Below are positions 28,079-41,293 of a stretch of 64,000 bases of DNA, piece after piece. Numbering within the stretch: the stretch's first letter is position 1; each line of letters opens with the position of its first letter. The stretch covers positions 47,229-111,228 of the forward strand of contig SVSB01000002.1 in the NCBI GenBank assembly GCA_015064505.1, read 5' to 3'. Under the pieces are notes generated by a model. It searched no databases. It was not told the origin of the DNA and saw nothing but the letters and a program-made list of their open reading frames with translations. Both the position numbers and the translations under genes were made by a program. Source of the DNA: Oscillospiraceae bacterium (GTDB lineage Bacteria > Bacillota > Clostridia > Oscillospirales > CAG-272).

Positions 28079-29875
28079 ATGAGATACGCGAAGACAGTTG
28101 CCCTGCTTTTATCCCTGCTTACCCTTGCGTCCTGCGCAAGTACCCCACCGACGGAAACTACCGCCGATAACGTAACTGAAGGAAGTGATCCCGTGACAGA
28201 ACCCGTTAAGCTCCCAGAGCCGAAGCTTACAAGTATATACGAGCTTAATCCCAAGCACGAGGAGGGCAGCCACACCGATATGACCTCCACCTCTTTTCTT
28301 GAGGCGGATTACCGCTCCCGCAACGAAATATCGGAGGATATCGCCAAAGCGACCGTTCCTTATTACACCAGATTAAAGCAGCTGCCCGACGGAAGCTACA
28401 TACTGCTTTATAATGACGAGCATAACGGCAAGGGCGTGCGTATGCTCAGAAGCGAGGACGGAGTAAACTGGGGAGAATACTCCACCGTTTTCGCTCAATA
28501 CTCGGACAAGGTATACGCAAACCCCGATGCCCTCGTGCTTCAGAACGGCGATATACTCTGCTGTGCCGCCTGGCGCCACACGGGCTCCTATTACAGAAAC
28601 CCCTCCAAGGGCGGCATCTCCATCAAGCGCTCCACTGATAACGGAAAGACCTGGGGCAAGGAGCAGGTTATATTTATCGGCATAAACTGGGAGCCCTATA
28701 TGCTCCAGCTCCGCTCGGGCGAGATACAGATATACTGGACGAACACCACCTGCTACGTGCTTCCCTCCTGCAACAACACCTCCACGGGAACGGCTATACT
28801 CCGCTCCTACGATAACGGCTATACCTGGACGGGAGACCTCTCCAAGGTATATTCAGGTCAGGTGGTTGCAAAGCAGGCAACGGAGCTGATCGACGGCGTA
28901 CAGTTTTACACGGATCAGATGCCCGTTGCCGTTGAATTGCAGAACGGCACCATTGCCCTTGCTCTGGAAAGCCGCCTTAACCGCAACAACACCTACCGCA
29001 TCACCATGGCGTATTCAAGCGATAACTGGGCGGAAAGCATCCCCCTTGACGGAGAGGGTCCCGCAGACAAGCTGACTAACCACTTCGTAGGTACCGCGCC
29101 CTATATCGCACAGTTCCCCTCGGGAGAGGTTATTTTGCGCTACAGCCGTCTTAACACCTCCACCCTTCATCTGGCAGACCCCACGGGACATAATTTTACC
29201 ACCAAGACCGTAAAGCTTGACAATATGAAGTATTGGGGATGCATAGAGCTTGTGGACAACAAGCACACCGCCGTGGTGTGCAGCACCACCAGATATAACG
29301 AGGGTAAGGAAAACGAGCTGTTCAGGCTCACCACCCAAAAGGTAAATCTTAACCACACTCTGTTTATCAAGGACGTTGATATTACCGTTGACGGCAACAG
29401 CGCGGAATGGGGCACGGATCACGACGCCTTGTTCGTGGGAAGCGAGAGCCAGGCGCAGATGAGCGTGCGCTTTGCAAGAAGTGAAAAGGGACTGGGCATA
29501 CTTATCGACCGTCTTGATTACGATCTTACTTCAAAGGATTCATCCACGGTGCGCATTGCAATGCCACAGAACAAATTGAGCTATATTGAAGTGACCGTAA
29601 ACCCCGACGGAAGCTACACGGCAAAGAAGCTGGTTGACGGCATACACACGGATATTGCCGTAGAATGCGCCGTTACCGTATTCGGAACCGTTGATAACGG
29701 AGACGACACGGACGAGGGCTATCTTGCGGAGATTCTTATCCCCGCAGAGCATCTGCCCGAGGAGCTTGCGGTATACGCAATGCTCTACAACAAGGACACC
29801 AAGGGCGCGGGCGCTTACGACAGCCCCGATATGATGAACGAGAATAACAATGTTGAATGGATAAAACTCAAGTAA
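28079..29875 (+). CDS. Lipoprotein: Asp-box sialidase-like beta-propeller + C-terminal CBM9-like domain (598 aa)
   Basis: Signal peptide + lipobox (LASCAST). Asp-boxes STDNGKTW and SYDNGYTW. C-terminal ~190 aa with DGNSAEWGTD…LFVG resembles carbohydrate-binding module family 9. Confidence 0.7.
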   Translation: MRYAKTVALLLSLLTLASCASTPPTETTADNVTEGSDPVTEPVKLPEPKLTSIYELNPKHEEGSHTDMTSTSFLEADYRSRNEISEDIAKATVPYYTRLKQLPDGSYILLYNDEHNGKGVRMLRSEDGVNWGEYSTVFAQYSDKVYANPDALVLQNGDILCCAAWRHTGSYYRNPSKGGISIKRSTDNGKTWGKEQVIFIGINWEPYMLQLRSGEIQIYWTNTTCYVLPSCNNTSTGTAILRSYDNGYTWTGDLSKVYSGQVVAKQATELIDGVQFYTDQMPVAVELQNGTIALALESRLNRNNTYRITMAYSSDNWAESIPLDGEGPADKLTNHFVGTAPYIAQFPSGEVILRYSRLNTSTLHLADPTGHNFTTKTVKLDNMKYWGCIELVDNKHTAVVCSTTRYNEGKENELFRLTTQKVNLNHTLFIKDVDITVDGNSAEWGTDHDALFVGSESQAQMSVRFARSEKGLGILIDRLDYDLTSKDSSTVRIAMPQNKLSYIEVTVNPDGSYTAKKLVDGIHTDIAVECAVTVFGTVDNGDDTDEGYLAEILIPAEHLPEELAVYAMLYNKDTKGAGAYDSPDMMNENNNVEWIKLK

Positions 29876-29969: not shown

Positions 29970-31763
29970 ATGAAGATCAGACGCTTGGCAATACTGCTTG
30001 CATTACTCGCGCTTTGTTCCTGCAACGGAAAAGCACCCCAAACCACGGATACTCCAACGACCTCCGAGGAAATAACGGAGCAGCTTCACGACGGTTTTGT
30101 AGAGCCTCCGTACCTTTCTTCCTTTTACGATATAATAAAGAATAACGCGGAGGGCAGCCACACGGAGCTGTATATCCTCTCCACCCTTGAAGCGGACTTC
30201 CGCTCCCACCAAAATATCGACAGCTCCGTTACCGCATCCGTCGCCCCCTACTATATACGCATAAAGGAGCTTTCCGACGGCAGCTTTATTATGGTATATA
30301 ACGAAGTGAAAAACGGCGATGGCGTAAGGATGCTTACAAGTGCCGACGGCGTTAATTGGGGCGGCTACGCCACCGTATTCCAGCCGACGGAAACGAAAAA
30401 GTACGCAAACCCCGAGGTAATAGTTCTTGCAAACGGGGATCTGCTTTGCTGTGCCGCCTGGCGCATAACCCCCGATTATCTTACCAATAACTCAAAGGGC
30501 GGCATCGAGATAAAGCGCTCCACGGATAACGGAAAGACCTGGAGCGAGGCGCAGAACGTTTCCACGGGTCTTGCCTGGGAGCCATATTTTCTGCAGCTGC
30601 GCTCGGGAGAGGTTCAGCTTTACTGGACCAATACCACCCGCTACAATCTTCCCGGCGGAAACAACACCTCCACGGGCACGGCGCTGCTCCGCTCCTACGA
30701 TAACGGCGTTACCTGGACGGGCAACCCAAAGATCCCCTATTCGGGACAGGTGGTTGCAAAGCAGGCAACGGAATATTACGATCACGTGCAGTTCTATACG
30801 GATCAGATGCCCGTTGCGGTTGAGCTTCAAAACGGCACGATCGCCCTTGCCCTTGAAAGCCGCCTTGACAGAGACGGCAACTGCTACGTTACTATGGCGT
30901 ACTCCCCCGATAATTGGTCGGTTAATATTCCGAAGAACGGAGAGGGCCCCGCTGACAAGCAGGAAAATATGAACCGCGGCGGCGGACCTTACCTTGCACA
31001 GTTCCCCTCGGGCGAGACGGTACTGAAATATTCATACAGCACTATCTTCAATCTGAAGTTGGGTGACCCGGAGGCAAGAGTTTTCACCAAGAATGCACTT
31101 AAATTCGACGATATGAAGAATTTTTCTTCCTTTGAGCTCCTCTCAAACGGTCATACGGTCATCTGCTCCGGCGGAGCTCCCTATACGGACGAAAAGGGCG
31201 CGGAGTGCTTCACCGTATGCACCCAAAGAGTAAATCTGAATCACGCACTGTTTTTAGCGGAGCAGGAGGTGACAGTTGACGGTAACGGCGCCGAATGGAA
31301 GAATAACGGAGAGGCGCTCTTCGTGGGCAGTAAAAGTCAGGCGCAGATGAGCGTGCGCTTTGCAAGAAGCGGTGAGGGACTGGGCGTACTTATAGACCGC
31401 CTTGATTACGATATTACAAGCGAGGATTCCTCCACCGTGCGCATCGCACTGCCCCACAACAAATTAAGCTATATAGAGATAACGGTAAAGGGCGACGGAA
31501 GCCACAAGGCTTTTATGATTGCGGACGGAGAGCATAGGGATATTACCGTGCAGTGCGCCGTTACCAATTTCGGAAAGCCCGATAACGTTGAGGATACGGA
31601 CGAAGGTATGCTTATTGAGCTTCTTATTCCCTCGGAATACCTGCCCGAAAGCATTTCCGTATGCCCCGCCCTCTACAACAAGGATACGGGCAAGGCGGGC
31701 ACCTACGATCAACCCGAATGGAATTACGAAACCGTCAACACCACTTGGTATCCGCTTAAATAA
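29970..31763 (+). CDS. Lipoprotein: Asp-box sialidase-like beta-propeller + CBM9-like domain (597 aa), tandem paralog
   Basis: Signal peptide + lipobox (ALCSCNG). STDNGKTW, SYDNGVTW. Colinear with the 28079 product. Confidence 0.7.
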   Translation: MKIRRLAILLALLALCSCNGKAPQTTDTPTTSEEITEQLHDGFVEPPYLSSFYDIIKNNAEGSHTELYILSTLEADFRSHQNIDSSVTASVAPYYIRIKELSDGSFIMVYNEVKNGDGVRMLTSADGVNWGGYATVFQPTETKKYANPEVIVLANGDLLCCAAWRITPDYLTNNSKGGIEIKRSTDNGKTWSEAQNVSTGLAWEPYFLQLRSGEVQLYWTNTTRYNLPGGNNTSTGTALLRSYDNGVTWTGNPKIPYSGQVVAKQATEYYDHVQFYTDQMPVAVELQNGTIALALESRLDRDGNCYVTMAYSPDNWSVNIPKNGEGPADKQENMNRGGGPYLAQFPSGETVLKYSYSTIFNLKLGDPEARVFTKNALKFDDMKNFSSFELLSNGHTVICSGGAPYTDEKGAECFTVCTQRVNLNHALFLAEQEVTVDGNGAEWKNNGEALFVGSKSQAQMSVRFARSGEGLGVLIDRLDYDITSEDSSTVRIALPHNKLSYIEITVKGDGSHKAFMIADGEHRDITVQCAVTNFGKPDNVEDTDEGMLIELLIPSEYLPESISVCPALYNKDTGKAGTYDQPEWNYETVNTTWYPLK

Positions 31764-31805
31764 AAAATATCCGCAGCACCAAACGGTACTGCGGATATTT
31801 TTATT
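31763..31805. terminator. Bidirectional hairpin terminator (atatccgcag..ctgcggatat) flanked by A-run and T-run
   Basis: Sits between the convergent 29970 gene (+) and rtcB (-). Confidence 0.8.
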
Positions 31806-33009
31806 CTGCCGCCTTGAAGTTGTAAATGGGCTTTATTATTTTGATTATTTCTGCGGTGGGCTCGATATTTTCAACGATCTCGTCCATGCTCTTATAAGCC
31901 ATGGGCGATTCGTCAAGAGTGTCGGGGACCACGCAGGTGGAGTATATACCCGCCATCTCCGCCTCGTATTCCGCCATGGTAAGCTGCTCAAATGCCTTGG
32001 AGCGGGACATAAGGCGCCCCGCACCGTGAGGCGCGGAAAAATTCCAATCCTCATTGCCCTTGCCAATGCAGATAAGGGAGCCGTCGCGCATATTGATGGG
32101 GATGAGAAGCTTCTCCCCCGCCTTTGCGGATACCGCGCCCTTGCGGACTATCATCTCGTTCACGTCCACGTAATTATGTATGGTCTGAAAGGTCTCCACC
32201 GCGGTCCACCCAAGACGCTCAAGTATGATCTCCGCCATTCTTTCGCGGTTTCTTTCCGCAAATTGCTGGCAGATATCCACGTCGTAGAGATAATCCTCCA
32301 TGAAAGAGCCGTAAAGGAAGCAAAGATCGCGGGGGAGAGTAGGCTCCTTTGCCTCCCATTCCCTTGCCATTTTCTTTAAGGTTGGCTGTATCTCCGCACG
32401 TCTTCCCTGCTCCTTATAGGTGCGGATTATCTCCTCGCGCCGCTTGAAATAATCCTCCTTGCCCATATTGAGGTCAACGGCGATCTGCTGGTAAAACTCC
32501 GCCACCTGCGTGCCGAGATTGCGCGAGCCCGAGTGGATAACGAGATACTTGCCGCCATCCCCGTCCTCGTCTATCTCAATAAAGTGGTTGCCGCCGCCGA
32601 GGGTGCCGAGGGATCGCTCAAGACGTCTGGTGTCCCTCAGATATCTGTAGCAGCGAAGGCGCGTAAGATCAAAGCGCTCCGTTCTGCCCTCCCAGACGTT
32701 TCTGCCGCAGGGGATGAAATGTGCCGCCTCGTCCACCTTTTCAAAGTCTATATCTATATTACCGAGGTACACGGTGTACATTCCGCAACCGATATCAACT
32801 CCCACCATGGAGGGAACCACCTTGTCGGTCACGGTCATGGTGGTGCCGATGGTGCAGCCCTTGCCCGCGTGAACGTCGGGCATTATTCTTATCTTTGAGG
32901 AGGCAAACGCCTCCGTATCGCACACCGCCTTGATCTGCTCCCGTGCACCGTCCTCAAGGGTAGACGCAAAGCATATTGCAGTGTTGAAATTTCCTGTTAT
33001 TTCTATCAT
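31801..33009 (-). CDS. rtcB: RtcB RNA 3'-phosphate / 2',3'-cyclic phosphate-5'-OH ligase (402 aa)
   Basis: Hallmark motifs DVHAGKGCTIG, GGGNHFIE, LIPINMRDGSLI, SAPHGAGR (His nucleophile). aaaggatag RBS. Confidence 0.85.
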   Translation of the reverse strand: MIEITGNFNTAICFASTLEDGAREQIKAVCDTEAFASSKIRIMPDVHAGKGCTIGTTMTVTDKVVPSMVGVDIGCGMYTVYLGNIDIDFEKVDEAAHFIPCGRNVWEGRTERFDLTRLRCYRYLRDTRRLERSLGTLGGGNHFIEIDEDGDGGKYLVIHSGSRNLGTQVAEFYQQIAVDLNMGKEDYFKRREEIIRTYKEQGRRAEIQPTLKKMAREWEAKEPTLPRDLCFLYGSFMEDYLYDVDICQQFAERNRERMAEIILERLGWTAVETFQTIHNYVDVNEMIVRKGAVSAKAGEKLLIPINMRDGSLICIGKGNEDWNFSAPHGAGRLMSRSKAFEQLTMAEYEAEMAGIYSTCVVPDTLDESPMAYKSMDEIVENIEPTAEIIKIIKPIYNFKAAE

Positions 33010-33014
33010 AATAT

Positions 33015-34133
33015 CTATCCTTTCATAGCGCCGACCGTTTCTCCGTTCAATATCGCCGTAAGCTGAGAGAGCATATTTCCGTTGCCGTTAAGTGAAATAT
33101 TGCCAACGTTCTCACAAATGCGCTCAACGTACTCAAGCTCCTTTAATTTATAAAGGGTCTTGTTTTCGTCCATCAGCTTTGCCGTGTTTAAAAGCGAACG
33201 GGTGGAGGCGACCTCCTCGCGGCGGGTAATTACGTTTGCCTGTGCGCGCTTTTCTGCCACCAGCACCGTGTTCATTATCTCGCGGATCTCACCGGGGAGA
33301 ATAATATCCTTAACGCCCGCATCCCTGAATTCAACGAAGAGCTCCGTTTCCTTTGCCTTCAGCCTTTCAAAAACGAATTCCGACATTTCCGCCTTTTTCT
33401 CAAGTATCTCGTCAAGCTTGTATTGCCCCACGTAATCGCGCAGAGCAAGCTGTGCGGCAACGTGGATCTGCTCCTCAAAATCGTCTACCTCCGTTATCAT
33501 TTTGACGATATCGGCAACGCGGTAGTTGCAAACGAAATTGATGCGGAGCGATACCTTATCTGCGGTAAGCATCTCCTGCCCCGTGATCTTCAGCTGTGTA
33601 AGACGTGTATCAACGTAATGCACGCCGACAGCGGTGGAAGTATTCCAAAAATAGTACGTTCCTGCATCCAAAACCCGAACAAGCTTATTGCCGAAGTACA
33701 GCAAAGCCTTCTGGAACTCCGCAACCTCTATCCTGGTATACAGGGTATTGGGTATTTTTTGGAATATATACTCGGGAACGGACCCATCCACCGTAGGCTC
33801 GGAGATATCCACCGTTTTGAATTCGTGGCGATCCGTGACAGCCCAGAAGGCGTGCTTGCCCTCGGTGAGCACGGAGGAAAATCTGCCGTTTACGTAGTGG
33901 AGGGCAAGCTCCTCGTCGCCAACCTCAACAACGGCCACCTTATCCGCAACCTCTTTATCCGCGAGCAGGGTTTCAAGGGAGCATTTCTTGCAGGATATGG
34001 GTTGACCGAGCTCCGAGAGCTCAACCGAATCCGATCCGAACAGCATATACCTTCCCGCGCCAAGCGTCTTTATGTACTTTCCGTTTTTAAAGAGAAATCC
34101 CCTCATATTTTCGTTTATGATTATCTTTTTCAT
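33015..34133 (-). CDS. Cytoplasmic SPFH / band-7 (stomatin-prohibitin-like) domain protein (372 aa from ATG 34133)
   Basis: Stomatin-like blocks LRDYVGQYKLDEILEKKAEMSEFV and EIREIMNTVLVAEKRAQANVI. No TM helix. 5-nt gap to rtcB. Confidence 0.6.
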   Translation of the reverse strand: MKKIIINENMRGFLFKNGKYIKTLGAGRYMLFGSDSVELSELGQPISCKKCSLETLLADKEVADKVAVVEVGDEELALHYVNGRFSSVLTEGKHAFWAVTDRHEFKTVDISEPTVDGSVPEYIFQKIPNTLYTRIEVAEFQKALLYFGNKLVRVLDAGTYYFWNTSTAVGVHYVDTRLTQLKITGQEMLTADKVSLRINFVCNYRVADIVKMITEVDDFEEQIHVAAQLALRDYVGQYKLDEILEKKAEMSEFVFERLKAKETELFVEFRDAGVKDIILPGEIREIMNTVLVAEKRAQANVITRREEVASTRSLLNTAKLMDENKTLYKLKELEYVERICENVGNISLNGNGNMLSQLTAILNGETVGAMKG

Positions 34134-34148
34134 AATATGCATCCTTTC

Positions 34149-34769
34149 TTATCTTTCTATCCGTTTTTGTCCTGTTTTACCGTAACCGAAGCAATCGCGG
34201 TAAAGCTTTTTGCCCACGTAATCTTTGTATTTGTAGCAATCGTATCTGCAGTTTTCGTTCCAATAGCTTATCATACGTGCGTGGGCAAGCTTAATATAAT
34301 CAAAATTAAGCTCACAAAGCTCCTTATATTCTTCACAGCCTCTATCCGAAAGCCTTTGATATACCGACTCAAGTATTTCCGTTACGTATTCGTCGCAGAC
34401 CTTTACCACGTACGGAAGAGCCCCGTCAAAAAGCTCTGAATCAAGAAGTGCTTCAATATGCTTTTGGCGTACGTATCCGTCGTAGCTTCTTGAAAAAATG
34501 CACCGATATACGGCTCTTTGACGCGGGGTAAGCTTGTTTCCTTGATCTTCCTCTTCCCTTACGTAAATTCGGTAAGGAATATCCACCGTCTCCCCCGTGG
34601 GCAAGCGCCATTTGGTGCTTGCCTCGCTGTACAGCGAACCGTCGTACGCCTCGCTTTTTATCTTCAAAGTATCGCAAACGGCTTCAACGTCCGCCGAATA
34701 TTCAGACGGAAACGCCTTCAAAAGCCGCGAAACGAAACGTTTTCTTTTTGTTCTGAAAAACAACAGCAT
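34149..34769 (-). CDS. Hypothetical protein (207 aa from ATG 34769), first gene of the rtcB operon; Cys-rich C-terminus
   Basis: GGGGAGGAAG RBS 6 nt before ATG (MLLFFRTKRKRF…). 6-nt gap to the SPFH gene. No recognisable motif. Confidence 0.5.
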   Translation of the reverse strand: MLLFFRTKRKRFVSRLLKAFPSEYSADVEAVCDTLKIKSEAYDGSLYSEASTKWRLPTGETVDIPYRIYVREEEDQGNKLTPRQRAVYRCIFSRSYDGYVRQKHIEALLDSELFDGALPYVVKVCDEYVTEILESVYQRLSDRGCEEYKELCELNFDYIKLAHARMISYWNENCRYDCYKYKDYVGKKLYRDCFGYGKTGQKRIER

Positions 34770-35036
34770 CTTAACTTCCTCCCCAAAGCTTACTTTACAG
34801 CGCCGAGTGCAAAAGCGGCGGCTGAAGGCTTGAGCGCCTCCGTTACGAAGCGGAAAGAATTCTTTTGGCTCCGTTCGGGATAACGCGGTATCCGTCCTCA
34901 GGCATGGCGCGCTTTTGCATTGCATGGATATCCGTGGTCTGCTTTTATCCTTGCTGATCGACTGCTGCCGCTCGGTTCCCACAAGCGACTGTAAACTTCA
35001 AATAGTTTTTTAATAAATAATCCTATCCACAGGCGA

Positions 35037-35082
35037 TACGTTTTTAACGCACGGCGGGATTCGAACCCGCGAAAAAGAGCTT
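35037..35082 (-). other. 3' half of a tRNA-Asn(GUU)-like sequence with no 5' half; candidate integration-site (att) scar or tRNA-mimic element
   Basis: Minus-strand RNA GGAGCCUGUUAAGCUCU UUUUC GCGGGUUCGAAUCCCGC CGUGCGU. That is a 5-bp anticodon stem with a 7-nt loop CU-GUU-AA, a 5-nt variable loop, a T-arm with TUCGAAU, and a 7-nt acceptor 3' strand. No D-arm or complementary 5' acceptor strand upstream. Confidence 0.55.
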
Positions 35083-35204
35083 AACAGGCTCCCGCAAGCC
35101 TTTTTGGGCATACACCTTGGAATATCCTCGTGCACCGCGGTGAAAACTATCCAAACACCGCAACCGGCCTTGCAAGCATATTTTACCATCGGTATACTCC
35201 CGCT

Positions 35205-35250
35205 TTCACGGAAAAAAAGCTGCGAACTCTCATCTGAGTCCGCAGCTTTT
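35205..35250. terminator. Hairpin (agctgcgaactc..gagtccgcagct) with T-runs on both sides, at the 3' end of the WYL gene pair
   Basis: Overlaps the stop codon at 35230-35232. Followed on the minus strand by TTTTTTTCC. Confidence 0.7.
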
Positions 35251-36141
35251 CTGTTTTTTCAGCTTTTCTTTTACCAATTCACGGAACTGCATAGGCTCCG
35301 TTACCTCCGCAAGAGGGCCGAAGGACAGTATCCTTATAAGCATTTCCGTTTCGTCGTCACGCACGTATTTTATCCTTACAGAATAGGTATTCTTCACCGT
35401 TTTCTCCGCCTGCTTCTCAAAATGGGCAAAATGGAGCATAAAGCGCTCAAGGGCGTTGCGCTCGTCCGTTATCTTCACGGTAACGGTATCGTATACTTTT
35501 TCCCGCTCCTCCCCTTCAAGCATTCTTTCGCCCGAATAACGCACGCAGGAGCGTATCTTTGCAAGATTGACCGTTGAAACGGATCTCCAGCCTGCAGTTA
35601 CCAGCCTGAACTTATCGTCCTTTACCGAATACTCAAGTCTTACGGGGTGGCAACGTATAAACATAGTCTTGCCGTTTCGGCTTGTCATCTCAAATCTTAT
35701 CTGATCGCCGTTGCGTATTGCGCGCAGTATAACGCGGAATTGGCGTATATATTCCTTATCCTCAAAGGGATCCCCATCGCAGTACTGATCGTAAATGCGG
35801 TAATCCTCCACGGTAAACAGAGGCTCCACACCCTCAAGCTCGGGCATTTTCACGTCAAAGAGCTTAACGCGTGGGTCCATGGCCACCGCCTTCAGCCATT
35901 GCTTCTGCAGAGTCGTCAGGGGCATATGGGGCTTATGCTCAATGGGTGTTGTCATATCCCTGCGGAGAAGCTGCCATTTTCCACCCTTAAGGGCAGGCAT
36001 TACGGAAAGCACGCTTTCCCCGAAGGCGCGCTCGCTTACTATCCTTTGCAGCTCCTTTTCCGAGCTTTCACCCTCCAGAATGCTGGATATTATGGCGGCA
36101 ACCGTGTTGTAATAGGCGGAATAAAGCTCGCTGAAGATCAT
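35230..36141 (-). CDS. WYL-WCX domain transcriptional regulator (PafC / BrxR-like), 303 aa
   Basis: WYL-like core FIRCHPVRLEYSVKDDKFRLVTAGWRS…VNLAKIRS. WCX-like C-terminus ETEMLIRILSFGPLAEVTEPMQFRELV. ATGA overlap with the upstream paralog. Confidence 0.65.
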   Translation of the reverse strand: MIFSELYSAYYNTVAAIISSILEGESSEKELQRIVSERAFGESVLSVMPALKGGKWQLLRRDMTTPIEHKPHMPLTTLQKQWLKAVAMDPRVKLFDVKMPELEGVEPLFTVEDYRIYDQYCDGDPFEDKEYIRQFRVILRAIRNGDQIRFEMTSRNGKTMFIRCHPVRLEYSVKDDKFRLVTAGWRSVSTVNLAKIRSCVRYSGERMLEGEEREKVYDTVTVKITDERNALERFMLHFAHFEKQAEKTVKNTYSVRIKYVRDDETEMLIRILSFGPLAEVTEPMQFRELVKEKLKKQKSCGLR

Positions 36142-37394
36142 TCTTCCACCTCCTCTATTCCGTACGTGCGGTACATTTCTCTCACGTCTTCCTTGAATTT
36201 GTTCTCCACCGTGCGGTTTGAAAAATTCATTTGCGTTATACGGCAGATAAAGGTCCTTATCCAGGGCACCATCTCGCTTGAATCGTAAACGTCGGCGGTA
36301 AAGCGGTAATTATGCTCGTCGATCCGTTCCACCTTTCCAACGCGCTTTTCTCGCTGAAGCCGCTTGACGATATAATCCTCCCCGTCCTCCACCCTTACGG
36401 TAAACTCCACGTGCTCCATATGCTCGGCACCCAGCTTGTTGCGCTTGATGCTGACGCCCCACATCTTTTTTTGCATTCTGTCAAGCTCTGCGCGAAGCTC
36501 GTCAAATCGGGGAGTAACGTCCTCAAGCTTTATATTGGAAAGATAATCCACGCGGTAGGACTGAAAATGATTATAATCGGGCAAGTACGCAAGCAGGTGC
36601 TGCCTGCCGTTTTGCGCGCTTATAAAAACGCGCAGGGGTACTATGCGGTTGCGGCGGGGCAGATCTCTGCGGCGGCTGAGATTGGAAACGGTGCACACGC
36701 GCTTTTCCCTCATTGCCGTGAAAAGCGAGGCAAGCACGCCGCTGTCAAGGGTTCCCGTTATGTAATGATGCTTAAAGGAGAAGGGCTCGTTTTTCACTTC
36801 AAACTTATCAAGGAGAAAAGAGCCGATAACACCGCAGGGCGCAACCTCCGAATAATAATGAAGCACCTCGTCGATACCCGAAATATCGGGACTTTCCGTT
36901 CTGTGATAATATACCTTTTTTCCCTCTTTTACGCGGTCGATAACGCCGATATCACAGTATTCCTTCAGTTTTTTGCGCACGGTGGACTCGTCGAACTCCA
37001 TGGGTTCTTCAAATCCGCACAGATACTTTCCGTCTATAAGCTCTATTATCTCCGTGAGCGTGTACCTGTCCTCAACGGAATGGAGTATATCAAAAAGGAT
37101 GAAGTGCAGAGTTATATCCCCATCGGTAAAGCTTTTTGCCTTCCACGCCTTAAAGAAGGGGTTATGCCTTATGGAGCGGCTGTCTATGGAGATAAAAACG
37201 TTTTTACCCTCCCGGGTACGCACGAAGCTCATATGATCCCCAAGCCAGCTTTCTATGCGGCGGCGCTCGTCGTCGTAAGAGCGGGAGCTTTTGGTTTGAT
37301 ATTCGCCGCGGTTCTTAAAGCCGTATACGTAAAACTCACGCATATACGCACGGGTCTTTTCAAAGCTTTTTATAAGCTCGCTGTATGACGACAT
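36138..37394 (-). CDS. WYL-WCX domain transcriptional regulator (PafB / BrxR-like), 419 aa from ATG 37394
   Basis: WYL core RQHLLAYLPDYNHFQSYRVDYLSNIKL. WCX-like C-terminus SEMVPWIRTFICRITQMNF…EDVREM. GGAAGGAGAAGG RBS before MSSYSELIK. Confidence 0.65.
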   Translation of the reverse strand: MSSYSELIKSFEKTRAYMREFYVYGFKNRGEYQTKSSRSYDDERRRIESWLGDHMSFVRTREGKNVFISIDSRSIRHNPFFKAWKAKSFTDGDITLHFILFDILHSVEDRYTLTEIIELIDGKYLCGFEEPMEFDESTVRKKLKEYCDIGVIDRVKEGKKVYYHRTESPDISGIDEVLHYYSEVAPCGVIGSFLLDKFEVKNEPFSFKHHYITGTLDSGVLASLFTAMREKRVCTVSNLSRRRDLPRRNRIVPLRVFISAQNGRQHLLAYLPDYNHFQSYRVDYLSNIKLEDVTPRFDELRAELDRMQKKMWGVSIKRNKLGAEHMEHVEFTVRVEDGEDYIVKRLQREKRVGKVERIDEHNYRFTADVYDSSEMVPWIRTFICRITQMNFSNRTVENKFKEDVREMYRTYGIEEVEE

Positions 37395-37511
37395 ACCTTC
37401 TCCTTCCAAGCCCACAGGCTTTCGTTTCCTGTCTCAATATTACACTATTTACGGCTCTTTGTCAATCTTACTAATTTTTTGCGATAATGAATAACGCAAG
37501 TCAACACAAAC

Positions 37512-37547
37512 AAAAAACCGTTGATGCCGAGGCATCAACGGTTTTTT
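37512..37547. terminator. Bidirectional terminator (aaaaaaccgttgatgcc gag gcatcaacggtttttt)
   Basis: Perfect 11-bp stem with A6 and T6 flanks, between the WYL operon start region and the opp operon end. Confidence 0.85.
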
Positions 37548-37554
37548 ATTGCTG

Positions 37555-37956
37555 TTAAATTGCTAAATAGATTATCAGGAAAACGAGTGCTATTGTAAGG
37601 CAGACGGTGCCGACGAGAAGCATATCGATTCTCCAGCCGCTGCGTTTTTCGGCTTTTTCGCGGGAGTAATCGCAATAGCTTACGTTATCCATATTAACGG
37701 ATGTGAAGGGCAACATACCCCAGAGCATCTTAACTCCGTATCCGAAAATATCGTAAGCGCCCTTGCTTGAAGCCCAACTGAGAGCACCAACGCAAACGAG
37801 CACGACACCGGGAGCGGTAAACGCGTCGCACAGATGGTGCATTGCCTCCTTGGCGTTCTCGGACTTAAAAAGTCCGCTTGTAGCCATGCTGAAGGCAAGC
37901 AGCACCGCGGCAACGATAAGGGATGCAATAAGATCCGTGGTTTTGATCTTCTTCAT
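37555..37956 (-). CDS. Small integral membrane protein (133 aa from ATG 37956), last gene of the opp operon
   Basis: Three hydrophobic helices. Start 2 nt after the oppF stop. Alternative upstream ATG at 38004 would overlap oppF. Confidence 0.5.
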   Translation of the reverse strand: MKKIKTTDLIASLIVAAVLLAFSMATSGLFKSENAKEAMHHLCDAFTAPGVVLVCVGALSWASSKGAYDIFGYGVKMLWGMLPFTSVNMDNVSYCDYSREKAEKRSGWRIDMLLVGTVCLTIALVFLIIYLAI

Positions 37957-37958
37957 GC

Positions 37959-39134
37959 TTACTTGATCATTTCCTGATACTTGGCGAACTCCGCATCGTT
38001 GCACTGCACGAAATGTCCGGGAGCTACCTCGCGGAAGGAAGGCTTATCCACCGTATAATCGTGCTCCTCGAGAGGATTGTAGCGGATTCTCTTTCTCTGC
38101 TTTTCGTAATGGGGGTCGGGCAGAGGAATTGCAGAGAGAAGCGCACGGGTATAGGGATGGAGAGGATTGCGGAACAGCTCGTCGGAGCTTGCAAGCTCAA
38201 CCATCTTACCGAAGTACATAACTCCGATACGGTCGGAGAAATACTTTACTACGGAAAGGTCGTGTGCAATAAAGAGAATAGTAAGACCAAGCTTTTGGCG
38301 AAGATCGTTCAGCAGGTTGATTACCTGTGCCTGAATGGACACGTCAAGTGCGGAAACGGGCTCGTCTGCGATGATAAGACTGGGCTCCATAACGATGGAA
38401 CGGGCAACGCCGATTCTCTGGCGCTGACCGCCTGAGAACTCGTGAGGATAACGGCTTGCGTGCTCGGGAACGAGTCCAACGAGCTCAAGCATCTCGTATA
38501 CCTTCTTATCAATGACCTTTCTATCTCTCTCGCCCTGGATCTGCAGACCCTCGGAGATTATCTCACGAACGGTCATACGGGGGTCAAGGGATGCGATAGG
38601 ATCCTGGAAGATCATCTGAATTTGAGTTACAAGACGAGTGTGCTTTGCCTTGTGGAGCTCGTTTTTATACTCAAGCTTGAGGGCGTCCTTCTCCGCGCCG
38701 TTTGCGGCGGCAATAAGGGGAAGATACTTTTCCTTGCATTCCGCAACAAGCTTTTTGCTGTATTCCTTATCGCAGTTGTTCTGATCGTACTTTGCCTCTG
38801 CGATCTTCTTGTTGTTCTCGGCAACGATGGCATCTCTCTGCGCGCGGTCTATTTTGCCCGCCTTCAGATCCTCGTTTGCCTGATTGATGGCAAGCTGATA
38901 GGAACGGATGCCCGCACCGATGCGTATACCCTTGAAGTAGATATCGCCGCTTGTGATGTTATAAAGCTTGATAATGGAGCGGCCGGTGGTGGTCTTACCG
39001 CATCCGGACTCGCCAACGAGACCGAATGCCTCGCCCTTCATTATCTCAAAGCTAACGTCGTCAACAGCCTTATTGCTTTTGAAATACTGGCAAAGGTGCT
39101 CAACTTTAAGCAGAACTTCATTTTCGTTATGCAT
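37959..39134 (-). CDS. oppF: Oligopeptide / dipeptide ABC transporter ATP-binding protein (OppF-like) with a ~100-aa insertion, 391 aa
   Basis: Walker A GESGCGKTT, Q-loop, FSGGQRQR, LIIADEPVSALD, C-terminal oligopeptide-transporter OppD/F tail. Lys/Ala-rich insertion after the Q-loop. Confidence 0.8.
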   Translation of the reverse strand: MHNENEVLLKVEHLCQYFKSNKAVDDVSFEIMKGEAFGLVGESGCGKTTTGRSIIKLYNITSGDIYFKGIRIGAGIRSYQLAINQANEDLKAGKIDRAQRDAIVAENNKKIAEAKYDQNNCDKEYSKKLVAECKEKYLPLIAAANGAEKDALKLEYKNELHKAKHTRLVTQIQMIFQDPIASLDPRMTVREIISEGLQIQGERDRKVIDKKVYEMLELVGLVPEHASRYPHEFSGGQRQRIGVARSIVMEPSLIIADEPVSALDVSIQAQVINLLNDLRQKLGLTILFIAHDLSVVKYFSDRIGVMYFGKMVELASSDELFRNPLHPYTRALLSAIPLPDPHYEKQRKRIRYNPLEEHDYTVDKPSFREVAPGHFVQCNDAEFAKYQEMIK

Positions 39135-41292
39135 TATCGTTTCCTACCTTTCCCTGCATTCTTGCAATTCTGTCGGTAACTATCTTGGGAGGTGCCACCT
39201 TGGGTGCATCGGGATGCAGAAGCCAGGTAGCTGCATAGTGGGTATCGCTGATCTTGAACATGGGAGGCTGCTCCTCAAAATCAATAACCATTGCGTACTT
39301 ATTACGTGCCGCAAAGGCGTCTCCCTTGGGAGGATAGATCATATTGGGAGGAGTGCCGGGGATGGCGTCCAGCTTCTCTGCAGTGTCAAGGTCGGGCATT
39401 GAAGAGAGCAGTGCCCAGGTATAGGGATGGGCAGAGTTATAGAAGATATCGTCTGCAGTACCGTACTCAACGATCTTGCCCGCGTACATAACGGCGATTC
39501 TGTCCGCCATATTGGCAACTACGCCGAGGTCGTGGGTAATGAAGATAATGGAAAGCTGACGCTGCTCCTTAATTTCGTTGATAAGCTCAAGTATCTGGGA
39601 CTGAATGGTAACGTCAAGAGCAGTGGTGGGCTCGTCGCAGATAAGGATATCGGGGTCAGCCGCAAGAGCGATAGCAATAACGATACGCTGGCGCATACCG
39701 CCGGAGAACTCGAAAGGATACTGATTGTATTTCTTTCTGGGCTCCTTGATACCAACCTCCTCCATCAGCTTGATGGCGCGGTGCTTTGCCATATCCTGAG
39801 TTACCTTATGAACAACGCCGGAGGCGTTCTCCTTCAGGTAATCGATCATAGCAACTGTTTCCTTATCAAAATCACGGTTTGCCTTGTTCTCCAAAGCGCG
39901 CTCGTAATGTGCGATAAGGCGGTCGATCTGGTTGAGAATATTCTTCTTTACCTGCTCAAGGCTTGTAATGGCGGCAGGCTTAACCTTCCAATCGGGAGCC
40001 TTGCCTGCGGCAACCATACGGTCGTACTTTGCCTGCTCTCTTGCGTAGCGGGCTTCTTCCTTGGCATTCTTGCCGATGGAAACGAAGTACTTCTCGATAT
40101 CGGCCTTGACGCCAAGCTCAAAGGTATATGCAAAGCTGTCCTTGATAAGCTCAAGACGGTCAATGGAAGCGTTTACAGCCTCACTCATCTTCTTATGAGC
40201 CTCAAGCCATACCTTCTTATCGGGGTTTTCTACGGTAAATACGTCTCTGTTTGCGTTCAGAACGGCAATAGCCTCGATCTTTGCGGCGTATGCATTCTCG
40301 GCGCTGTACATAAGACCCTGCTTGGCGTCTGCAATAAAGCCAAGCATAAAGTTATCGTCAAGATACTTGCGGAGGAACACGTTAAGCTCCTCAACGGACA
40401 TATCGGGCAGCTTAGCACCGCCGCCGAAGGTGTAGAAATAACCGAGAGCAAAGAAATTGGGTGCGGGGAAAGCAACAGCCTCGGAGGCTATCTCGCTGAT
40501 AGTGGAAAGGAGAGCCGCAACGGGAGCAAGATCTCCGGACTTCTTGCAGGAGGCAAGAGTGGGAAGTAGCGCGTTTGCGGCAGCTGTGATCTCGGCCTTT
40601 CTTGCGTCTACAACGTAGGTGTGTACGCAGTCAAGAGCATCCTTCTTGATCCGGCCAAGACGGTACTTAACGTCGCTTGCCGCGTGCTTCTCGATCTCGA
40701 ATATAAGGTTGTCGGCCTCGGCGGAAACCTCGATTGCCGCCTCATGAGCGATATTCCATGCGGACTCAAGCTCGATGTGCTTATATTCGAACTTATCAAA
40801 GTTCTTGCACTTCTCTTCAAGCTCCTTTGCCTTTGCGGCATCGCCCTTTGCAATAGCGGCAGACATTGCCTGATTGAGCTTTGCGAGAGTGGTGTTGAAG
40901 TTTATCTTGCTTTCCTTCTGGCGTGCCTTACCCTTAAGGAGCATCGCCTCGGTAAGCTGACGGCCTATCTTTACGATGGGGTTAAGGCTGGACAAAGGGT
41001 CCTGGAAGATCATGGCGATCTTATCGCCGCGGATACTGTGGAAGTCCTCCTCGGAGATCTTAAGGAGGTCCTTACCGTCGTAGATTATCTCGCCGCCCTC
41101 GATAATGGAGTTACCGGCAAGAATACCAAGGATAGCCTTGGAGGTTACGGACTTGCCGGAGCCGGACTCACCGACTATGGCAAGAGTTTCACCCTTATTA
41201 AGATCAAAATCAATTCCTCTTACCGCCTGAACCTTACCGTTTGTGGTACGGAAGGAGATAGTAAGATCTTTTACTGATAATTTCTTTTCCAT
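39127..41292 (-). CDS. oppD: Oligopeptide ABC transporter ATP-binding protein (OppD-like) with a ~380-aa helical insertion, 721 aa from ATG 41292
   Basis: GESGSGKS Walker A, IFQDP Q-loop, then ~380 aa of Ala/Lys/Glu-rich sequence, then [25 protein letters not shown]. ggaggactaaa RBS. Confidence 0.8.
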
Positions 41293-41293
41293 T

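What the first reader, a model, noticed from the sequence alone, without database searches (positions are those of the whole stretch)
31801..37394. WYL-WYL regulator pair upstream of an orphan-SPFH-RtcB operon: candidate RNA-damage or phage-stress response module
- The sequence shows a three-gene minus-strand operon with 5-6-nt intergenic gaps: a 207-aa orphan ORF, a cytoplasmic SPFH/band-7 protein, then RtcB with all its catalytic motifs.
- That operon is preceded by a promoter region, and then by two translationally coupled WYL-WCX proteins (ATGA overlap). This is the PafB/PafC arrangement.
- Established background:
  - RtcB reseals 2',3'-cyclic-phosphate / 5'-OH RNA breaks made by ribotoxins.
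  - WYL-domain regulators (PafBC, BrxR/CapW) sense nucleic-acid signals and gate stress or defence operons.
  - Classical rtcB loci use RtcR/RtcA/archease/Ro60, none of which is present here.
- An SPFH protein and an orphan co-transcribed with rtcB under putative WYL control is not a described Rtc architecture as far as I know.
- It could be a new repair or defence-associated module, or a regulated RNA-repair response.
Basis: partly seen in the sequence, partly recalled or inferred. Interest (0 to 1): 0.75.

Follow-up and report, generated by a model that had tools for sequence, protein, structure and literature searches.

The report
WYL-controlled RtcB repair operon with tRNA-like RNA

Summary

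- The WYL pair and a 22-nt promoter/operator motif travel with RtcB operons in about 34 of 41 informative loci.
- The link survives changes of cargo and of gene orientation.

1. **SPFH with RtcB is a described architecture.** Burroughs & Aravind (2016) predicted RtcB + Band-7 + a "band-7-associated tRNA". I found RtcR | tRNA-like RNA | slipin | RtcB orthologous loci in Photobacterium and Burkholderia.
2. **The 460-nt "promoter region" is mostly RNA.** It holds a terminator, a promoter, and a leader of about 400 nt with two domains:
   - D1 is a rearranged tRNA mimic with a T-arm, a closed acceptor-like stem, a D-like arm and an anticodon-like loop.
   - D2 is a 176-nt domain in which 48 of 54 pairs show compensatory changes. 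It has no Rfam match.

The RNA is present in every locus that has SPFH and absent from every locus that lacks it. The "orphan" is an optional accessory gene.

Verdict: a new variant of a known, untested kind of system. What appears new is the WYL control and the D2 domain.

The parts
37436..37465 (-). Own promoter of the WYL pair (TTGACA, 15-nt spacer, TGTAATATT extended -10)
   Evidence: Read directly from the sequence. It follows the terminator hairpin of the upstream gene, which lies within the 37482-37567 hairpin-type matches.
36138..37394 (-). WYL-A, 418 aa: weak wHTH (residues 129-173), then a WYL domain (227-296) and a C-terminal extension
   Evidence: Pfam WYL 1e-6 (29.1 bits against a cutoff of 21.8) and PADLOC WYL 2.1e-12. 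Orthologs at 40-75% identity lie next to WYL-B in related loci.
35230..36141 (-). WYL-B, 303 aa: second WYL-family regulator, translationally coupled to WYL-A by an ATGA overlap
   Evidence: PADLOC WYL 2.8e-10 and Pfam WCX 6.6e-4, below threshold. Foldseek on the AF2 model returns 32 of 32 significant hits to WYL regulators (PafBC, DriD, CapW, BrxR), but the model is low confidence. The family has 5807 clusters, which NCBI names 'WYL domain-containing protein'.
35212..35247 (-). Intrinsic terminator hairpin of the WYL operon (AGCTGCGGACTC...GAGTTCGCAGC followed by a T-run). It overlaps the end of WYL-B and the operator.
   Evidence: Read from the sequence. Rfam hairpin-type chance matches fall on it. 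Other loci carry a separate terminator upstream of the same motif.
35180..35226 (-). Conserved promoter/operator: TTCGCAG-N8-CCGTGAA (imperfect inverted repeat) overlapping a weak -35 (GTGAAA), an 18-nt spacer, and an extended -10 (TGGTAAAAT)
   Evidence: Unique in the window at up to 3 mismatches, with 0 expected by chance. Promoter scan. The motif is kept in 29 distinct promoters, including AT-rich L081 and the cargo-swapped L203, L211 and L212.
34770..35173 (-). Structured leader RNA of about 400 nt, from the predicted transcription start to the orphan start codon
   Evidence: Alignment of 14 leaders: 45 of 67 RNAalifold pairs show compensatory changes. Many G-U pairs fix the strand.
35018..35147 (-). 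RNA domain D1, a rearranged tRNA mimic. Elements: P1 hairpin 35107-35136; anticodon-like arm 35076-35092 (loop CU-GUU-AA); T-arm 35054-35070 (GCGGG-UUCGAAU-CCCGC); acceptor-like stem closed by a loop 35036-35052; D-like arm 35022-35033 (GG in the loop).
   Evidence: Model R2 scores 132 bits here. On 33 distinct sequences 97.7% of cells pair, 17 of 26 pairs show compensatory changes, and slid controls give 21-64%. Rfam matches only the T-arm (as tmRNA) plus a weak YrlA hit, E 0.78. ARAGORN calls no tRNA. A relative lies upstream of the Photobacterium slipin gene, E 6e-10.
34793..34967 (-). RNA domain D2: three-way junction closed by a 10-bp stem, carrying a long irregular hairpin with the invariant internal loop GGAUACC
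   Evidence: Model R1 scores 147.6 bits here. On 23 distinct sequences 90.8% of cells pair, 48 of 54 pairs show compensatory changes, and slid controls give 35-44%. No Rfam family matches even at E up to 10.
34149..34769 (-). 'Orphan', 206 aa: conserved alpha-helical-repeat protein, an optional accessory gene
33015..34142 (-). SPFH/Band-7 (slipin) protein with an N-terminal extra domain of about 130 aa and no evident membrane segment
   Evidence: Band_7 1.3e-26 and stomatin PDB hits. Full-length orthologs at 32-35% identity sit next to rtcR in Proteobacteria.
31801..33009 (-). RtcB RNA ligase, 402 aa (short form)
   Evidence: Pfam RtcB 6.9e-57. Catalytic motifs align to PH1602. phrog_1075 'tRNA splicing ligase' 1e-127.

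Best explanation
The locus is an inducible RNA-repair cassette of the RtcB / SPFH (Band-7) / tRNA-like-RNA type.

Shown by the analysis:
- A WYL-A/WYL-B pair is transcribed from its own promoter and ends at a terminator.
- Directly after it lies a strongly conserved promoter. Its weak -35 is embedded in an imperfect inverted repeat, TTCGCAG-N8-CCGTGAA.
- This promoter drives one transcript. It begins with a structured RNA of about 400 nt (D1, a tRNA mimic, and D2) and then encodes the orphan, SPFH and RtcB.
- The RNA and the SPFH gene are gained and lost together.
- The WYL pair and the promoter are shared by RtcB operons that carry other cofactor modules.

Inferred, not shown:
- The WYL heterodimer binds the repeat and switches the promoter when its WYL domains bind a nucleic-acid damage signal. 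The likely signal is broken RNA or tRNA fragments, by analogy with RtcR sensing tRNA fragments that end in 2',3'-cyclic phosphate.
- I favour activation (about 55:45 over repression). The reasons are the weak -35, the extended -10, and the resemblance to PafBC and DriD.
- The leader RNA, possibly after processing, assembles with the oligomeric cytoplasmic SPFH protein into an RNP. This RNP would serve RtcB as scaffold or cofactor, or would act as a tRNA-shaped decoy for anticodon nucleases, in the way Ro60-Y RNA is proposed to work in rsr-yrlA-rtcB operons.
- RtcB then reseals 2',3'-cyclic-phosphate/5'-OH breaks in tRNA or rRNA.
- The orphan is an accessory factor of unknown role.
For: Domains.

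RNA structure:
- D1: 97.7% of cells paired and 17 of 26 pairs compensatory.
- D2: 90.8% of cells paired and 48 of 54 pairs compensatory.
- Slid controls fall to 21-64%.

RNA-SPFH coupling:
- All 15 loci that have SPFH and readable upstream sequence carry the RNA.
- All 8 SPFH-less RtcB operons lack it. L020 keeps a truncated remnant.
- A DNA-only metagenome scan recovered 26 D2 copies. Every copy with readable downstream sequence (25 of the 26) lies directly upstream of SPFH or of orphan-SPFH; L096 ends too soon to tell.

WYL coupling:
- The pair is adjacent in about 34 of 41 informative loci.
- The motif is conserved in 29 distinct promoters.
- The same pair and motif drive other cargoes: AAA + tRNA-like + DUF2828/DUF7788 in L203; tRNA-like + DUF2828 + RtcB + RlaP + a CCA-type NTase, in divergent orientation, in L211; tRNA-like leaders + RtcB + DUF2828 in L212.

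Kinship to the known system:
- Photobacterium and Burkholderia have RtcR | aberrant tRNA-like RNAs | slipin | RtcB.
- The D1 model hits the Photobacterium RNA at E 6e-10.

Literature: RtcB + Band-7 + b7a-tRNA is quoted in bioRxiv 10.1101/312249. RtcR activation by tRNA fragments is in PMC7790460.
Against: - There are no expression, binding or processing data. Every mechanistic step is inference.
- WYL-B's domain calls rest on a sub-threshold Pfam hit, a PADLOC profile and a low-confidence model.
- At least 6 informative loci lack an adjacent WYL pair: L022, L117, L151/L096, L192, L083 (IS66 insertion), and L002/L004 (a DUF2828 module lies upstream and the contig then ends).
- D2 sits 25-35 nt from the first start codon, which fits a cis-regulatory leader as well as it fits a trans-acting RNP RNA.
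- No terminator or obvious processing site separates the RNA from the ORFs.
- The tRNA-like domain is not recognised by ARAGORN or by the Rfam tRNA model.
Confidence: 0.6

Rival explanations
1. The 400-nt RNA is purely a cis-acting regulatory leader, in the manner of a riboswitch or T-box. It would sense a ligand, or intact versus broken or uncharged tRNA, through its T-loop and tRNA-like surfaces. It would then gate translation or read-through of SPFH-RtcB and would not form a stable RNP.
For: - The RNA always lies in the 5' UTR, and D2 ends 25-35 nt before the first start codon.
- There is no internal terminator, so it is co-transcribed.
- D2 has the look of an aptamer: a three-way junction closed by a P1-like stem, with invariant internal loops.
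Against: - The RNA follows the SPFH gene, not RtcB. Operons that lose SPFH lose the RNA but keep the promoter, the orphan and RtcB.
- No conserved alternative pairing with the ribosome-binding site or with a terminator was seen.
- Sibling operons carry free-standing tRNA-like genes next to TROVE-like DUF2828 proteins, which points to RNA-protein partnerships.
Confidence: 0.2
2. The cassette is primarily an anti-phage or anti-toxin defence module. The tRNA mimic would be a decoy or tripwire for phage or competitor anticodon nucleases, and the WYL pair would keep it repressed until infection, as BrxR and CapW do.
For: - Among the solved structures hit by the WYL-B model, BrxR and CapW are named there as regulators of BREX and CBASS defence systems.
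- In one subgroup the anticodon-like loop keeps C32, U33, A37 and A38 while the triplet varies: GUC, GUU, UUC, UAC, UUU, GAC. These are anticodons of the kinds that, from my own recollection of the literature, colicin E5-, PrrC- and zymocin-type nucleases target.
- The RtcB belongs to a phage-rich clade (phrog_1075, 1e-127).
- Two relatives lie on IMG/VR contigs.
- PMC7790460 raises a decoy role for YrlA.
Against: - PADLOC gives no system-level hit.
- The window flanks are ordinary genes: an ABC transporter, BNR lipoproteins and an esterase.
- Many relatives replace the anticodon-like loop with other hairpins.
- There are no toxin or effector genes.
Confidence: 0.15
3. The WYL pair is an unrelated neighbour, for example a DNA-damage regulator, and its adjacency to the rtcB operon has no regulatory meaning.
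For: - The pair has its own promoter and terminator.
- A few RtcB/SPFH loci lack it.
Against: - Adjacency holds in about 34 of 41 informative loci, down to 40-50% protein identity.
- It persists when the cargo and the orientation change.
- The conserved 22-nt motif always lies between the pair and the cargo, and L203 has a second copy in front of the second cargo unit.
Confidence: 0.05

Closest known systems
RtcB - Band-7/SPFH - 'b7a-tRNA' RNA-repair system (Burroughs & Aravind, NAR 2016; quoted in bioRxiv 10.1101/312249). Examples found here: RtcR | tRNA-like RNAs | slipin | RtcB in Photobacterium and Burkholderia.
   Same: - The core is the same: a cytoplasmic slipin (32-35% identity over its full length), RtcB, and a tRNA-like RNA directly upstream of the slipin gene.
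- Related loci carry the same accessory genes, RlaP and TROVE-like proteins.
- The D1 model detects the Photobacterium RNA at E 6e-10.
   Different: - The regulator is a WYL-WYL pair acting at a sigma-70-type promoter, not the divergent RtcR (CARF + sigma-54 activator).
- The RNA is not an authentic-looking tRNA. It is a rearranged mimic (anticodon-like arm, T-arm, closed acceptor stem, D-like arm) embedded in a leader of about 400 nt.
- The leader has a second domain, D2, found only in Clostridia.
- An extra orphan gene is present.
- I could not read the 2016 paper itself.
rsr-yrlBA-rtcBA operon: Ro60 and the YrlA Y RNA (Chen 2014, PMC4201824; Hughes 2020, PMC7790460)
   Same: - An RtcB operon that carries an RNA-binding scaffold protein and a tRNA-mimicking ncRNA.
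- The order of elements matches: T-arm, then a closed acceptor-like hairpin, then a D-arm.
- A damage-sensing regulator is present.
   Different: - The window has no Ro60/TROVE gene.
- The Rfam YrlA match scores only 17 bits against a gathering score of 69.
- There is no Ro-binding stem.
- An SPFH protein takes the place of Ro60.
PafBC, DriD, BrxR and CapW: WYL-domain transcription factors
   Same: - Predicted HTH-WYL-WCX build.
- Two adjacent, translationally coupled genes, as in pafB/pafC.
- A binding-site-like motif overlaps the -35 region of a stress operon.
   Different: - No sequence-level similarity to any solved WYL protein at E up to 1.
- WYL-A and WYL-B are not detectably similar to each other.
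- The target is an RNA-repair operon, not a DNA-repair regulon or a defence system.
- The ligand is unknown.

Membership tests
RtcB/Band-7/b7a-tRNA RNA-repair system | RtcB-family ligase with intact catalytic motifs | tested here: met
   Pfam RtcB 6.9e-57. The motifs align to P. horikoshii RtcB.
RtcB/Band-7/b7a-tRNA RNA-repair system | A Band-7/SPFH gene in the same operon, orthologous to slipins linked to rtc loci | tested here: met
   Band_7 1.3e-26. The gap to rtcB is 5 nt. The protein is 32-35% identical over 94-98% of its length to slipins next to rtcR in Citrobacter, E. coli, Photobacterium and Burkholderia.
RtcB/Band-7/b7a-tRNA RNA-repair system | A tRNA-like ncRNA encoded next to the Band-7 gene | tested here: met
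   D1 has a T-arm, an acceptor-like stem, a D-like arm and an anticodon-like arm, with covariation. It co-occurs with SPFH in 15 of 15 loci and is absent in 8 of 8 without it. The D1 model hits the Photobacterium Band-7-linked RNA at E 6e-10. Caveat: it does not 'strongly resemble an authentic tRNA', because ARAGORN and the Rfam tRNA model are negative.
RtcB/Band-7/b7a-tRNA RNA-repair system | The RNA is expressed and acts together with the Band-7 protein and RtcB | not testable with these tools
   This needs RNA-seq, co-purification and genetics. According to 10.1101/312249 it has never been validated for any member.
Classical Rtc locus (RtcR/RtcA/RtcB) | An RtcR (CARF + sigma-54 activator) regulator and the RtcA cyclase | tested here: not met
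   No RtcR or RtcA lies among the operon genes or the immediate flanks. RtcR is present in the proteobacterial relatives.
PafBC-type WYL heterodimer | Two adjacent, translationally coupled genes, each HTH-WYL-WCX | tested here: inconclusive
   The ATGA overlap is confirmed. WYL-A has WYL above its cutoff, only a weak HTH, and no WCX call. WYL-B has WCX and WYL below threshold, PADLOC WYL at 2.8e-10, and a Foldseek top hit to PafBC, but on a model with pLDDT 61.
PafBC-type WYL heterodimer | Sequence orthology to PafB/PafC | tested here: not met
   Neither protein has a PDB sequence hit at E up to 1. The two are not similar to each other by BLASTP.
YrlA / bacterial Y RNA (Rfam RF02553) | Reaches the Rfam gathering score and lies next to Ro60 (Rsr) | tested here: not met
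   17.2 bits against a gathering score of 69, E 0.78. The window has no TROVE gene. Only the order T-arm, hairpin, D-arm is shared.
Canonical tRNA or tmRNA gene | Cloverleaf recognised by ARAGORN or by Rfam tRNA/tmRNA | tested here: not met
   ARAGORN finds 0 genes in the window. Rfam matches only the 18-nt T-arm of tmRNA.
Known anti-phage defence systems (PADLOC) | Hits to system-specific protein models | tested here: not met
   Only the generic WYL profile and weak noise hits were found.
Any Rfam 15 family (for domain D2) | A covariance-model match | tested here: not met
   Nothing overlaps 34793-34967 even at E up to 10 on a 521-nt search.

The most novel reading that the evidence does not exclude
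The 400-nt leader would be a new class of large structured bacterial RNA. Its tRNA-mimic domain (D1) and its Clostridia-specific domain (D2) would assemble with a cytoplasmic SPFH oligomer into a Ro/Y-RNA-like or vault-like RNP. This RNP would capture or mimic broken tRNAs for RtcB. The whole unit would be switched on by a WYL heterodimer that senses damaged RNA. That would make it a second, independent solution to the RtcR/CARF damage sensor, and the first assigned function for a soluble bacterial SPFH protein.
Probability: 0.3. Interest if true: 0.85.

Novelty: new variant of a known kind. Interest (0 to 1): 0.6.

Why it matters
- **RtcB's bacterial role is unclear.** RtcB is universal, but its bacterial substrates and cofactors are still poorly defined. 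The Band-7 + tRNA-like RNA branch of RNA repair has been a purely computational prediction since 2016.
- **This locus is a compact test case.** It is abundant in gut and rumen samples, with thousands of protein clusters. It offers a defined sigma-70-type promoter/operator, a candidate two-protein sensor, and an RNA whose structure is already well constrained by covariation.
- **Possible pay-offs.** It could show what soluble SPFH proteins do. It could show whether WYL domains sense damaged RNA as CARF does in RtcR. It could add a new large structured RNA, D2, to the catalogue.
- **Annotation.** Genome annotation currently misses the RNA altogether.

Tried and rejected
1. **A conventional acceptor stem for the tRNA-like element.** I first read GUGCACG pairing with CGUGCGU. 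Divergent sequences keep the two local hairpins (P1 and the post-T-arm hairpin) but not the long-range pairing.
2. **The orphan as an immunity protein of polymorphic-toxin loci.** Distant homologs (L025-L080) sit among small same-strand genes. The large upstream proteins were mostly housekeeping; only one had a TPS/CdiA-like domain. No Pfam family was enriched among 80 neighbours. No conclusion.
4. **An intrinsic terminator between D1 and D2.** The scan did not support one, and the hairpins concerned are missing from the window's own copy.
5. **A D1-D2 kissing interaction** (GCGGUG with the GGAUACC loop). Inspection by eye showed no consistent covariation, so I did not pursue it.
6. **Reading Burroughs & Aravind 2016.** The paper is not held, so the comparison with b7a-tRNA rests on a secondary quotation and on proteobacterial loci I retrieved myself.
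7. **The metagenome pattern scan.** 94 of the 120 hits were chance matches and were removed with the covariance model.
8. **WYL-A against WYL-B by BLASTP.** No similarity was found.

Full report
**1. Observation**

All five minus-strand ORFs are present at the stated coordinates.
- RtcB (31801-33009) scores Pfam RtcB 6.9e-57. It aligns to P. horikoshii RtcB across the MPDvHxG, DIgCG, GNHF, HSGSRnLG and HGAGR motifs.
- The SPFH protein (33015-34142) scores Band_7 1.3e-26 and matches stomatins in the PDB.
- WYL-A (36138-37394) passes the Pfam WYL cutoff, with PADLOC WYL at 2e-12.
- WYL-B (35230-36141) is weaker. Pfam WCX and WYL are below threshold and PADLOC WYL is 2.8e-10. Its AF2 model is low confidence (pLDDT 61), yet all 32 significant PDB hits are WYL regulators: PafBC, DriD, CapW and BrxR.
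- The ATGA overlap and the short intergenic gaps are real. SPFH probably starts at the second ATG, 34133.
- The orphan (34149-34769) has a GGGAGG ribosome-binding site.

**2. What the "promoter region" contains**

Reading 34770-35229 on the minus strand showed a perfect tRNA T-arm, GCGGGUUCGAAUCCCGC. Rfam matched only this arm, as a tmRNA fragment, plus a weak YrlA hit at E 0.78. ARAGORN found no tRNA.

I fetched 80 loci encoding orphan homologs. The same intergenic region is conserved in the close clade. In order it contains:
- a terminator for the WYL operon;
- a promoter with the invariant motif TTCGCAGCTTTTTTTCCGTGAAA, then about 14 nt, then TGGTAAAAT;
- a leader of about 400 nt.

RNAalifold on 14 leaders gave 45 of 67 pairs with compensatory changes. 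I split the leader into two domains and drew the structures by hand.

*D1 (window 35018-35147).* Its elements, in order:
- a P1 hairpin;
- an anticodon-like arm with a 7-nt loop, CU-NNN-AA;
- a variable loop of about 5 nt;
- the T-arm;
- an acceptor-like stem of 6-7 bp closed by a loop;
- a 3-bp D-like arm with GG in its loop.

In effect it is a tRNA whose acceptor end is closed and whose chain is opened between the D arm and the anticodon stem. This is the same idea as YrlA.

On 33 distinct sequences 97.7% of cells pair, and 17 of 26 pairs change on both sides. Slid controls give 21-64%.

*D2 (window 34793-34967).* It is a three-way junction. It carries a long irregular hairpin with an invariant GGAUACC internal loop.

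On 23 distinct sequences 90.8% of cells pair, and 48 of 54 pairs are compensatory. Slid controls give 35-44%. These alignments are fitted to the models, so the percentage paired leans upward. The MAFFT-only alignments gave the same picture. D2 has no Rfam match.

**3. Gene-neighbourhood survey**

*Orphan-anchored loci.*
- The close clade (rumen and gut Clostridia, Oscillospiraceae, Acutalibacteraceae) keeps the order WYL-A, WYL-B, promoter, (RNA), orphan, (SPFH), RtcB.
- SPFH is absent from L010-L012 and L018-L021/L024. Wherever the upstream sequence can be read, the RNA is absent too, and the promoter runs straight into the ribosome-binding site. L020 keeps a truncated remnant.

*SPFH-anchored loci.* These show WYL pair, RNA, SPFH, RtcB with no orphan.

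*RNA-anchored loci.*
- I scanned metagenomes with a DNA-only pattern and filtered the hits with the D2 model. This gave 26 copies.
- Every copy with readable downstream sequence (25 of the 26; L096 ends too soon) lies directly upstream of SPFH, or of orphan then SPFH. RtcB follows, and the WYL pair lies upstream wherever the contig allows.

*Overall.*
- The RNA and SPFH co-occur in 15 of 15 loci and are co-absent in 8 of 8.
- The WYL pair is adjacent in about 34 of 41 informative loci.
- The exceptions are an IS66 insertion (L083), contigs that end after an interposed DUF2828 module (L002, L004), and a few that truly lack the pair (L022, L117, L151/L096, L192).

**4. The WYL pair and promoter as a portable regulatory cassette**

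- In L203 the same pair (74% identity) and the identical motif, present twice, drive an AAA ATPase, a tRNA-Phe-like gene and a DUF2828/DUF7788 protein. I recall DUF2828/DUF7788 being related to the TROVE/vWA build of Ro60, but I did not test this. There is no SPFH or RtcB in L203.
- Two IMG/VR contigs were found through the motif alone.
  - L211 has the pair divergent from motif, tRNA-Met-like gene, DUF2828, RtcB, RlaP and a CCA-type NTase.
  - L212 has pair, motif, tRNA-like leaders, RtcB, DUF2828.
- The motif is an imperfect inverted repeat, TTCGCAG-N8-CCGTGAA. It overlaps a weak -35 in front of an extended -10. This suits a heterodimeric factor.
- The motif occurs once in the window.

**5. 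Comparison with what is known**

- The YrlA structure preprint (10.1101/312249) quotes Burroughs & Aravind 2016. [quoted passage not shown] This RNA is occasionally swapped with Rsr/YrlA and has never been validated.
- PMC13086221 notes an SPFH gene inside the P. aeruginosa rtc locus.
- I retrieved proteobacterial orthologs of the SPFH protein, 32-35% identical over the full length.
  - Photobacterium and Burkholderia have RtcR (Pfam RtcR 1e-77 in Photobacterium), then aberrant tRNA-like RNAs, then slipin, then RtcB.
  - The tRNA-like RNAs score 54 and 46 bits with the Rfam tRNA model. ARAGORN reports "tRNA-???" with 2-nt anticodons.
  - Citrobacter and E. coli have rtcR, RNA, slipin, RlaP.
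- The D1 model hits the Photobacterium RNA (30 bits, E 6e-10), including the P1 hairpin. It gives weak hits in E. coli and Burkholderia.
- The D2 model finds nothing outside Clostridia.
- So the core (tRNA-like RNA, SPFH, RtcB) is the known, predicted system. The WYL pair in place of RtcR, the rearranged tRNA mimic and D2 are the variant features.
- I found no paper linking WYL regulators to RtcB operons. However, I could not read the 2016 paper. [quoted passage not shown] The link may therefore already be noted there.

**6. The orphan and other accessory genes**

- The orphan is a real family: 134 clusters with strong motifs.
- It has a confident alpha-solenoid model and no informative structural neighbour.
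- It is optional in this cassette.
- Outside this clade it sits in unrelated, variable contexts in Bacilli, Clostridia and Deferribacteraceae.
- Some homologs are fused to DUF4275. DUF4275 also occurs as a separate small gene in variant operons, alongside an unannotated protein of about 155 aa, a weak DUF2691-like protein, and RlaP.
- Its function remains unknown.

**7. Mechanism**

*Shown:* the operon anatomy, the RNA structure, the RNA-SPFH coupling, the coupling of the WYL pair and promoter to RtcB operons, and homology to RtcR-controlled Band-7 systems.

*Inferred:*
- WYL-A/B binds the repeat and switches the promoter in response to a nucleic-acid damage signal. By analogy with RtcR, which is activated by tRNA fragments (PMC7790460), the signal is probably broken RNA.
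- The leader RNA and the SPFH oligomer form an RNP that assists RtcB or decoys tRNA-directed nucleases.
- RtcB reseals the breaks.

*Main rival:* the RNA is only a cis-regulatory leader. The SPFH-specific co-loss argues against this but does not exclude it.

A defence-decoy reading rests on two points. The anticodon-like triplet is variable, and the RtcB belongs to a phage-rich clade. There is no system-level defence signature, and the window flanks are ordinary.

**8. Verdict**

The claimed novelty of SPFH + RtcB does not hold, and the most distinctive element, the RNA, was overlooked.

Novelty: a new variant of a known, still untested kind of system. Interest: 0.6.

Noticed in passing
L203 11384-11455; L002 912-987 and 1215-1287; L004 471-543; L211 5792-5864 (-): Every DUF2828/DUF7788 gene seen here is preceded, within about 30-190 nt, by a tRNA or tRNA-like gene (Phe-GAA-like, Leu-UAA, Met-CAU). 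From memory these proteins resemble the TROVE/vWA build of Ro60; I did not test this. The pattern suggests a second protein + tRNA-like RNA module that swaps with SPFH + leader RNA under the same WYL promoter.
   Followed up: partly
L203 8926 and 10184: There are two copies of the TTCGCAGCTTTTTTTCCGTGAAAA...TGGTAAAAT promoter/operator in one locus. One lies after the WYL pair and one before the tRNA-like + DUF2828 unit. This hints at a small regulon.
   Followed up: no
L081 7001-8917: A 638-aa SPFH protein in which the N-terminal domain of about 130 aa, seen once in the window protein, is repeated three times. In this AT-rich relative RtcB is followed by RlaP.
   Followed up: no
L212 9900-10000 and 10200-10245: An SPFH-less, WYL-controlled RtcB operon still has a leader with one nearly complete tRNA-like fold (acceptor GGCACCA/UGGUGCC, D-arm, CAU anticodon loop, T-arm) and a second T-arm. 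tRNA-like leaders may therefore be general to these operons.
   Followed up: partly
L083 344-2768: A three-gene transposase set that I read by eye as IS66-family (546, 118 and 141 aa; not profile-tested) is inserted immediately upstream of the leader RNA. It displaces the WYL pair and the promoter.
   Followed up: no
window 28079-29875 and 29970-31763 (+): Two tandem paralogous lipoproteins of about 598 aa with BNR/sialidase-like repeats lie just downstream of rtcB on the opposite strand. Their Pfam BNR_2 scores are just below the cutoff.
   Followed up: no
window 39127-41331 (-): An OppD-like ABC ATPase of 734 aa whose two ABC halves are split by an insertion of roughly 400 aa that looks alanine- and lysine-rich and probably helical by eye. 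An OppF-like ATPase (37959-39134) has a smaller insertion.
   Followed up: no
window 35230-35247 (-): The last six codons of WYL-B (KSCGLR) are encoded by the 5' arm of its own terminator. Its 3' arm is part of the conserved operator. The same few bases therefore carry protein-coding, terminator and operator functions.
   Followed up: no
L206 4700-4870; L208 3740-3861: The rtcR-slipin intergenic regions of Citrobacter and E. coli contain a sigma-54-type promoter followed by T-loop-like hairpins (GGGGUUAAACCCC and GGGUUCGAUUCCC). Neither ARAGORN nor Rfam calls them, and the RNA is unannotated in these records.
   Followed up: partly
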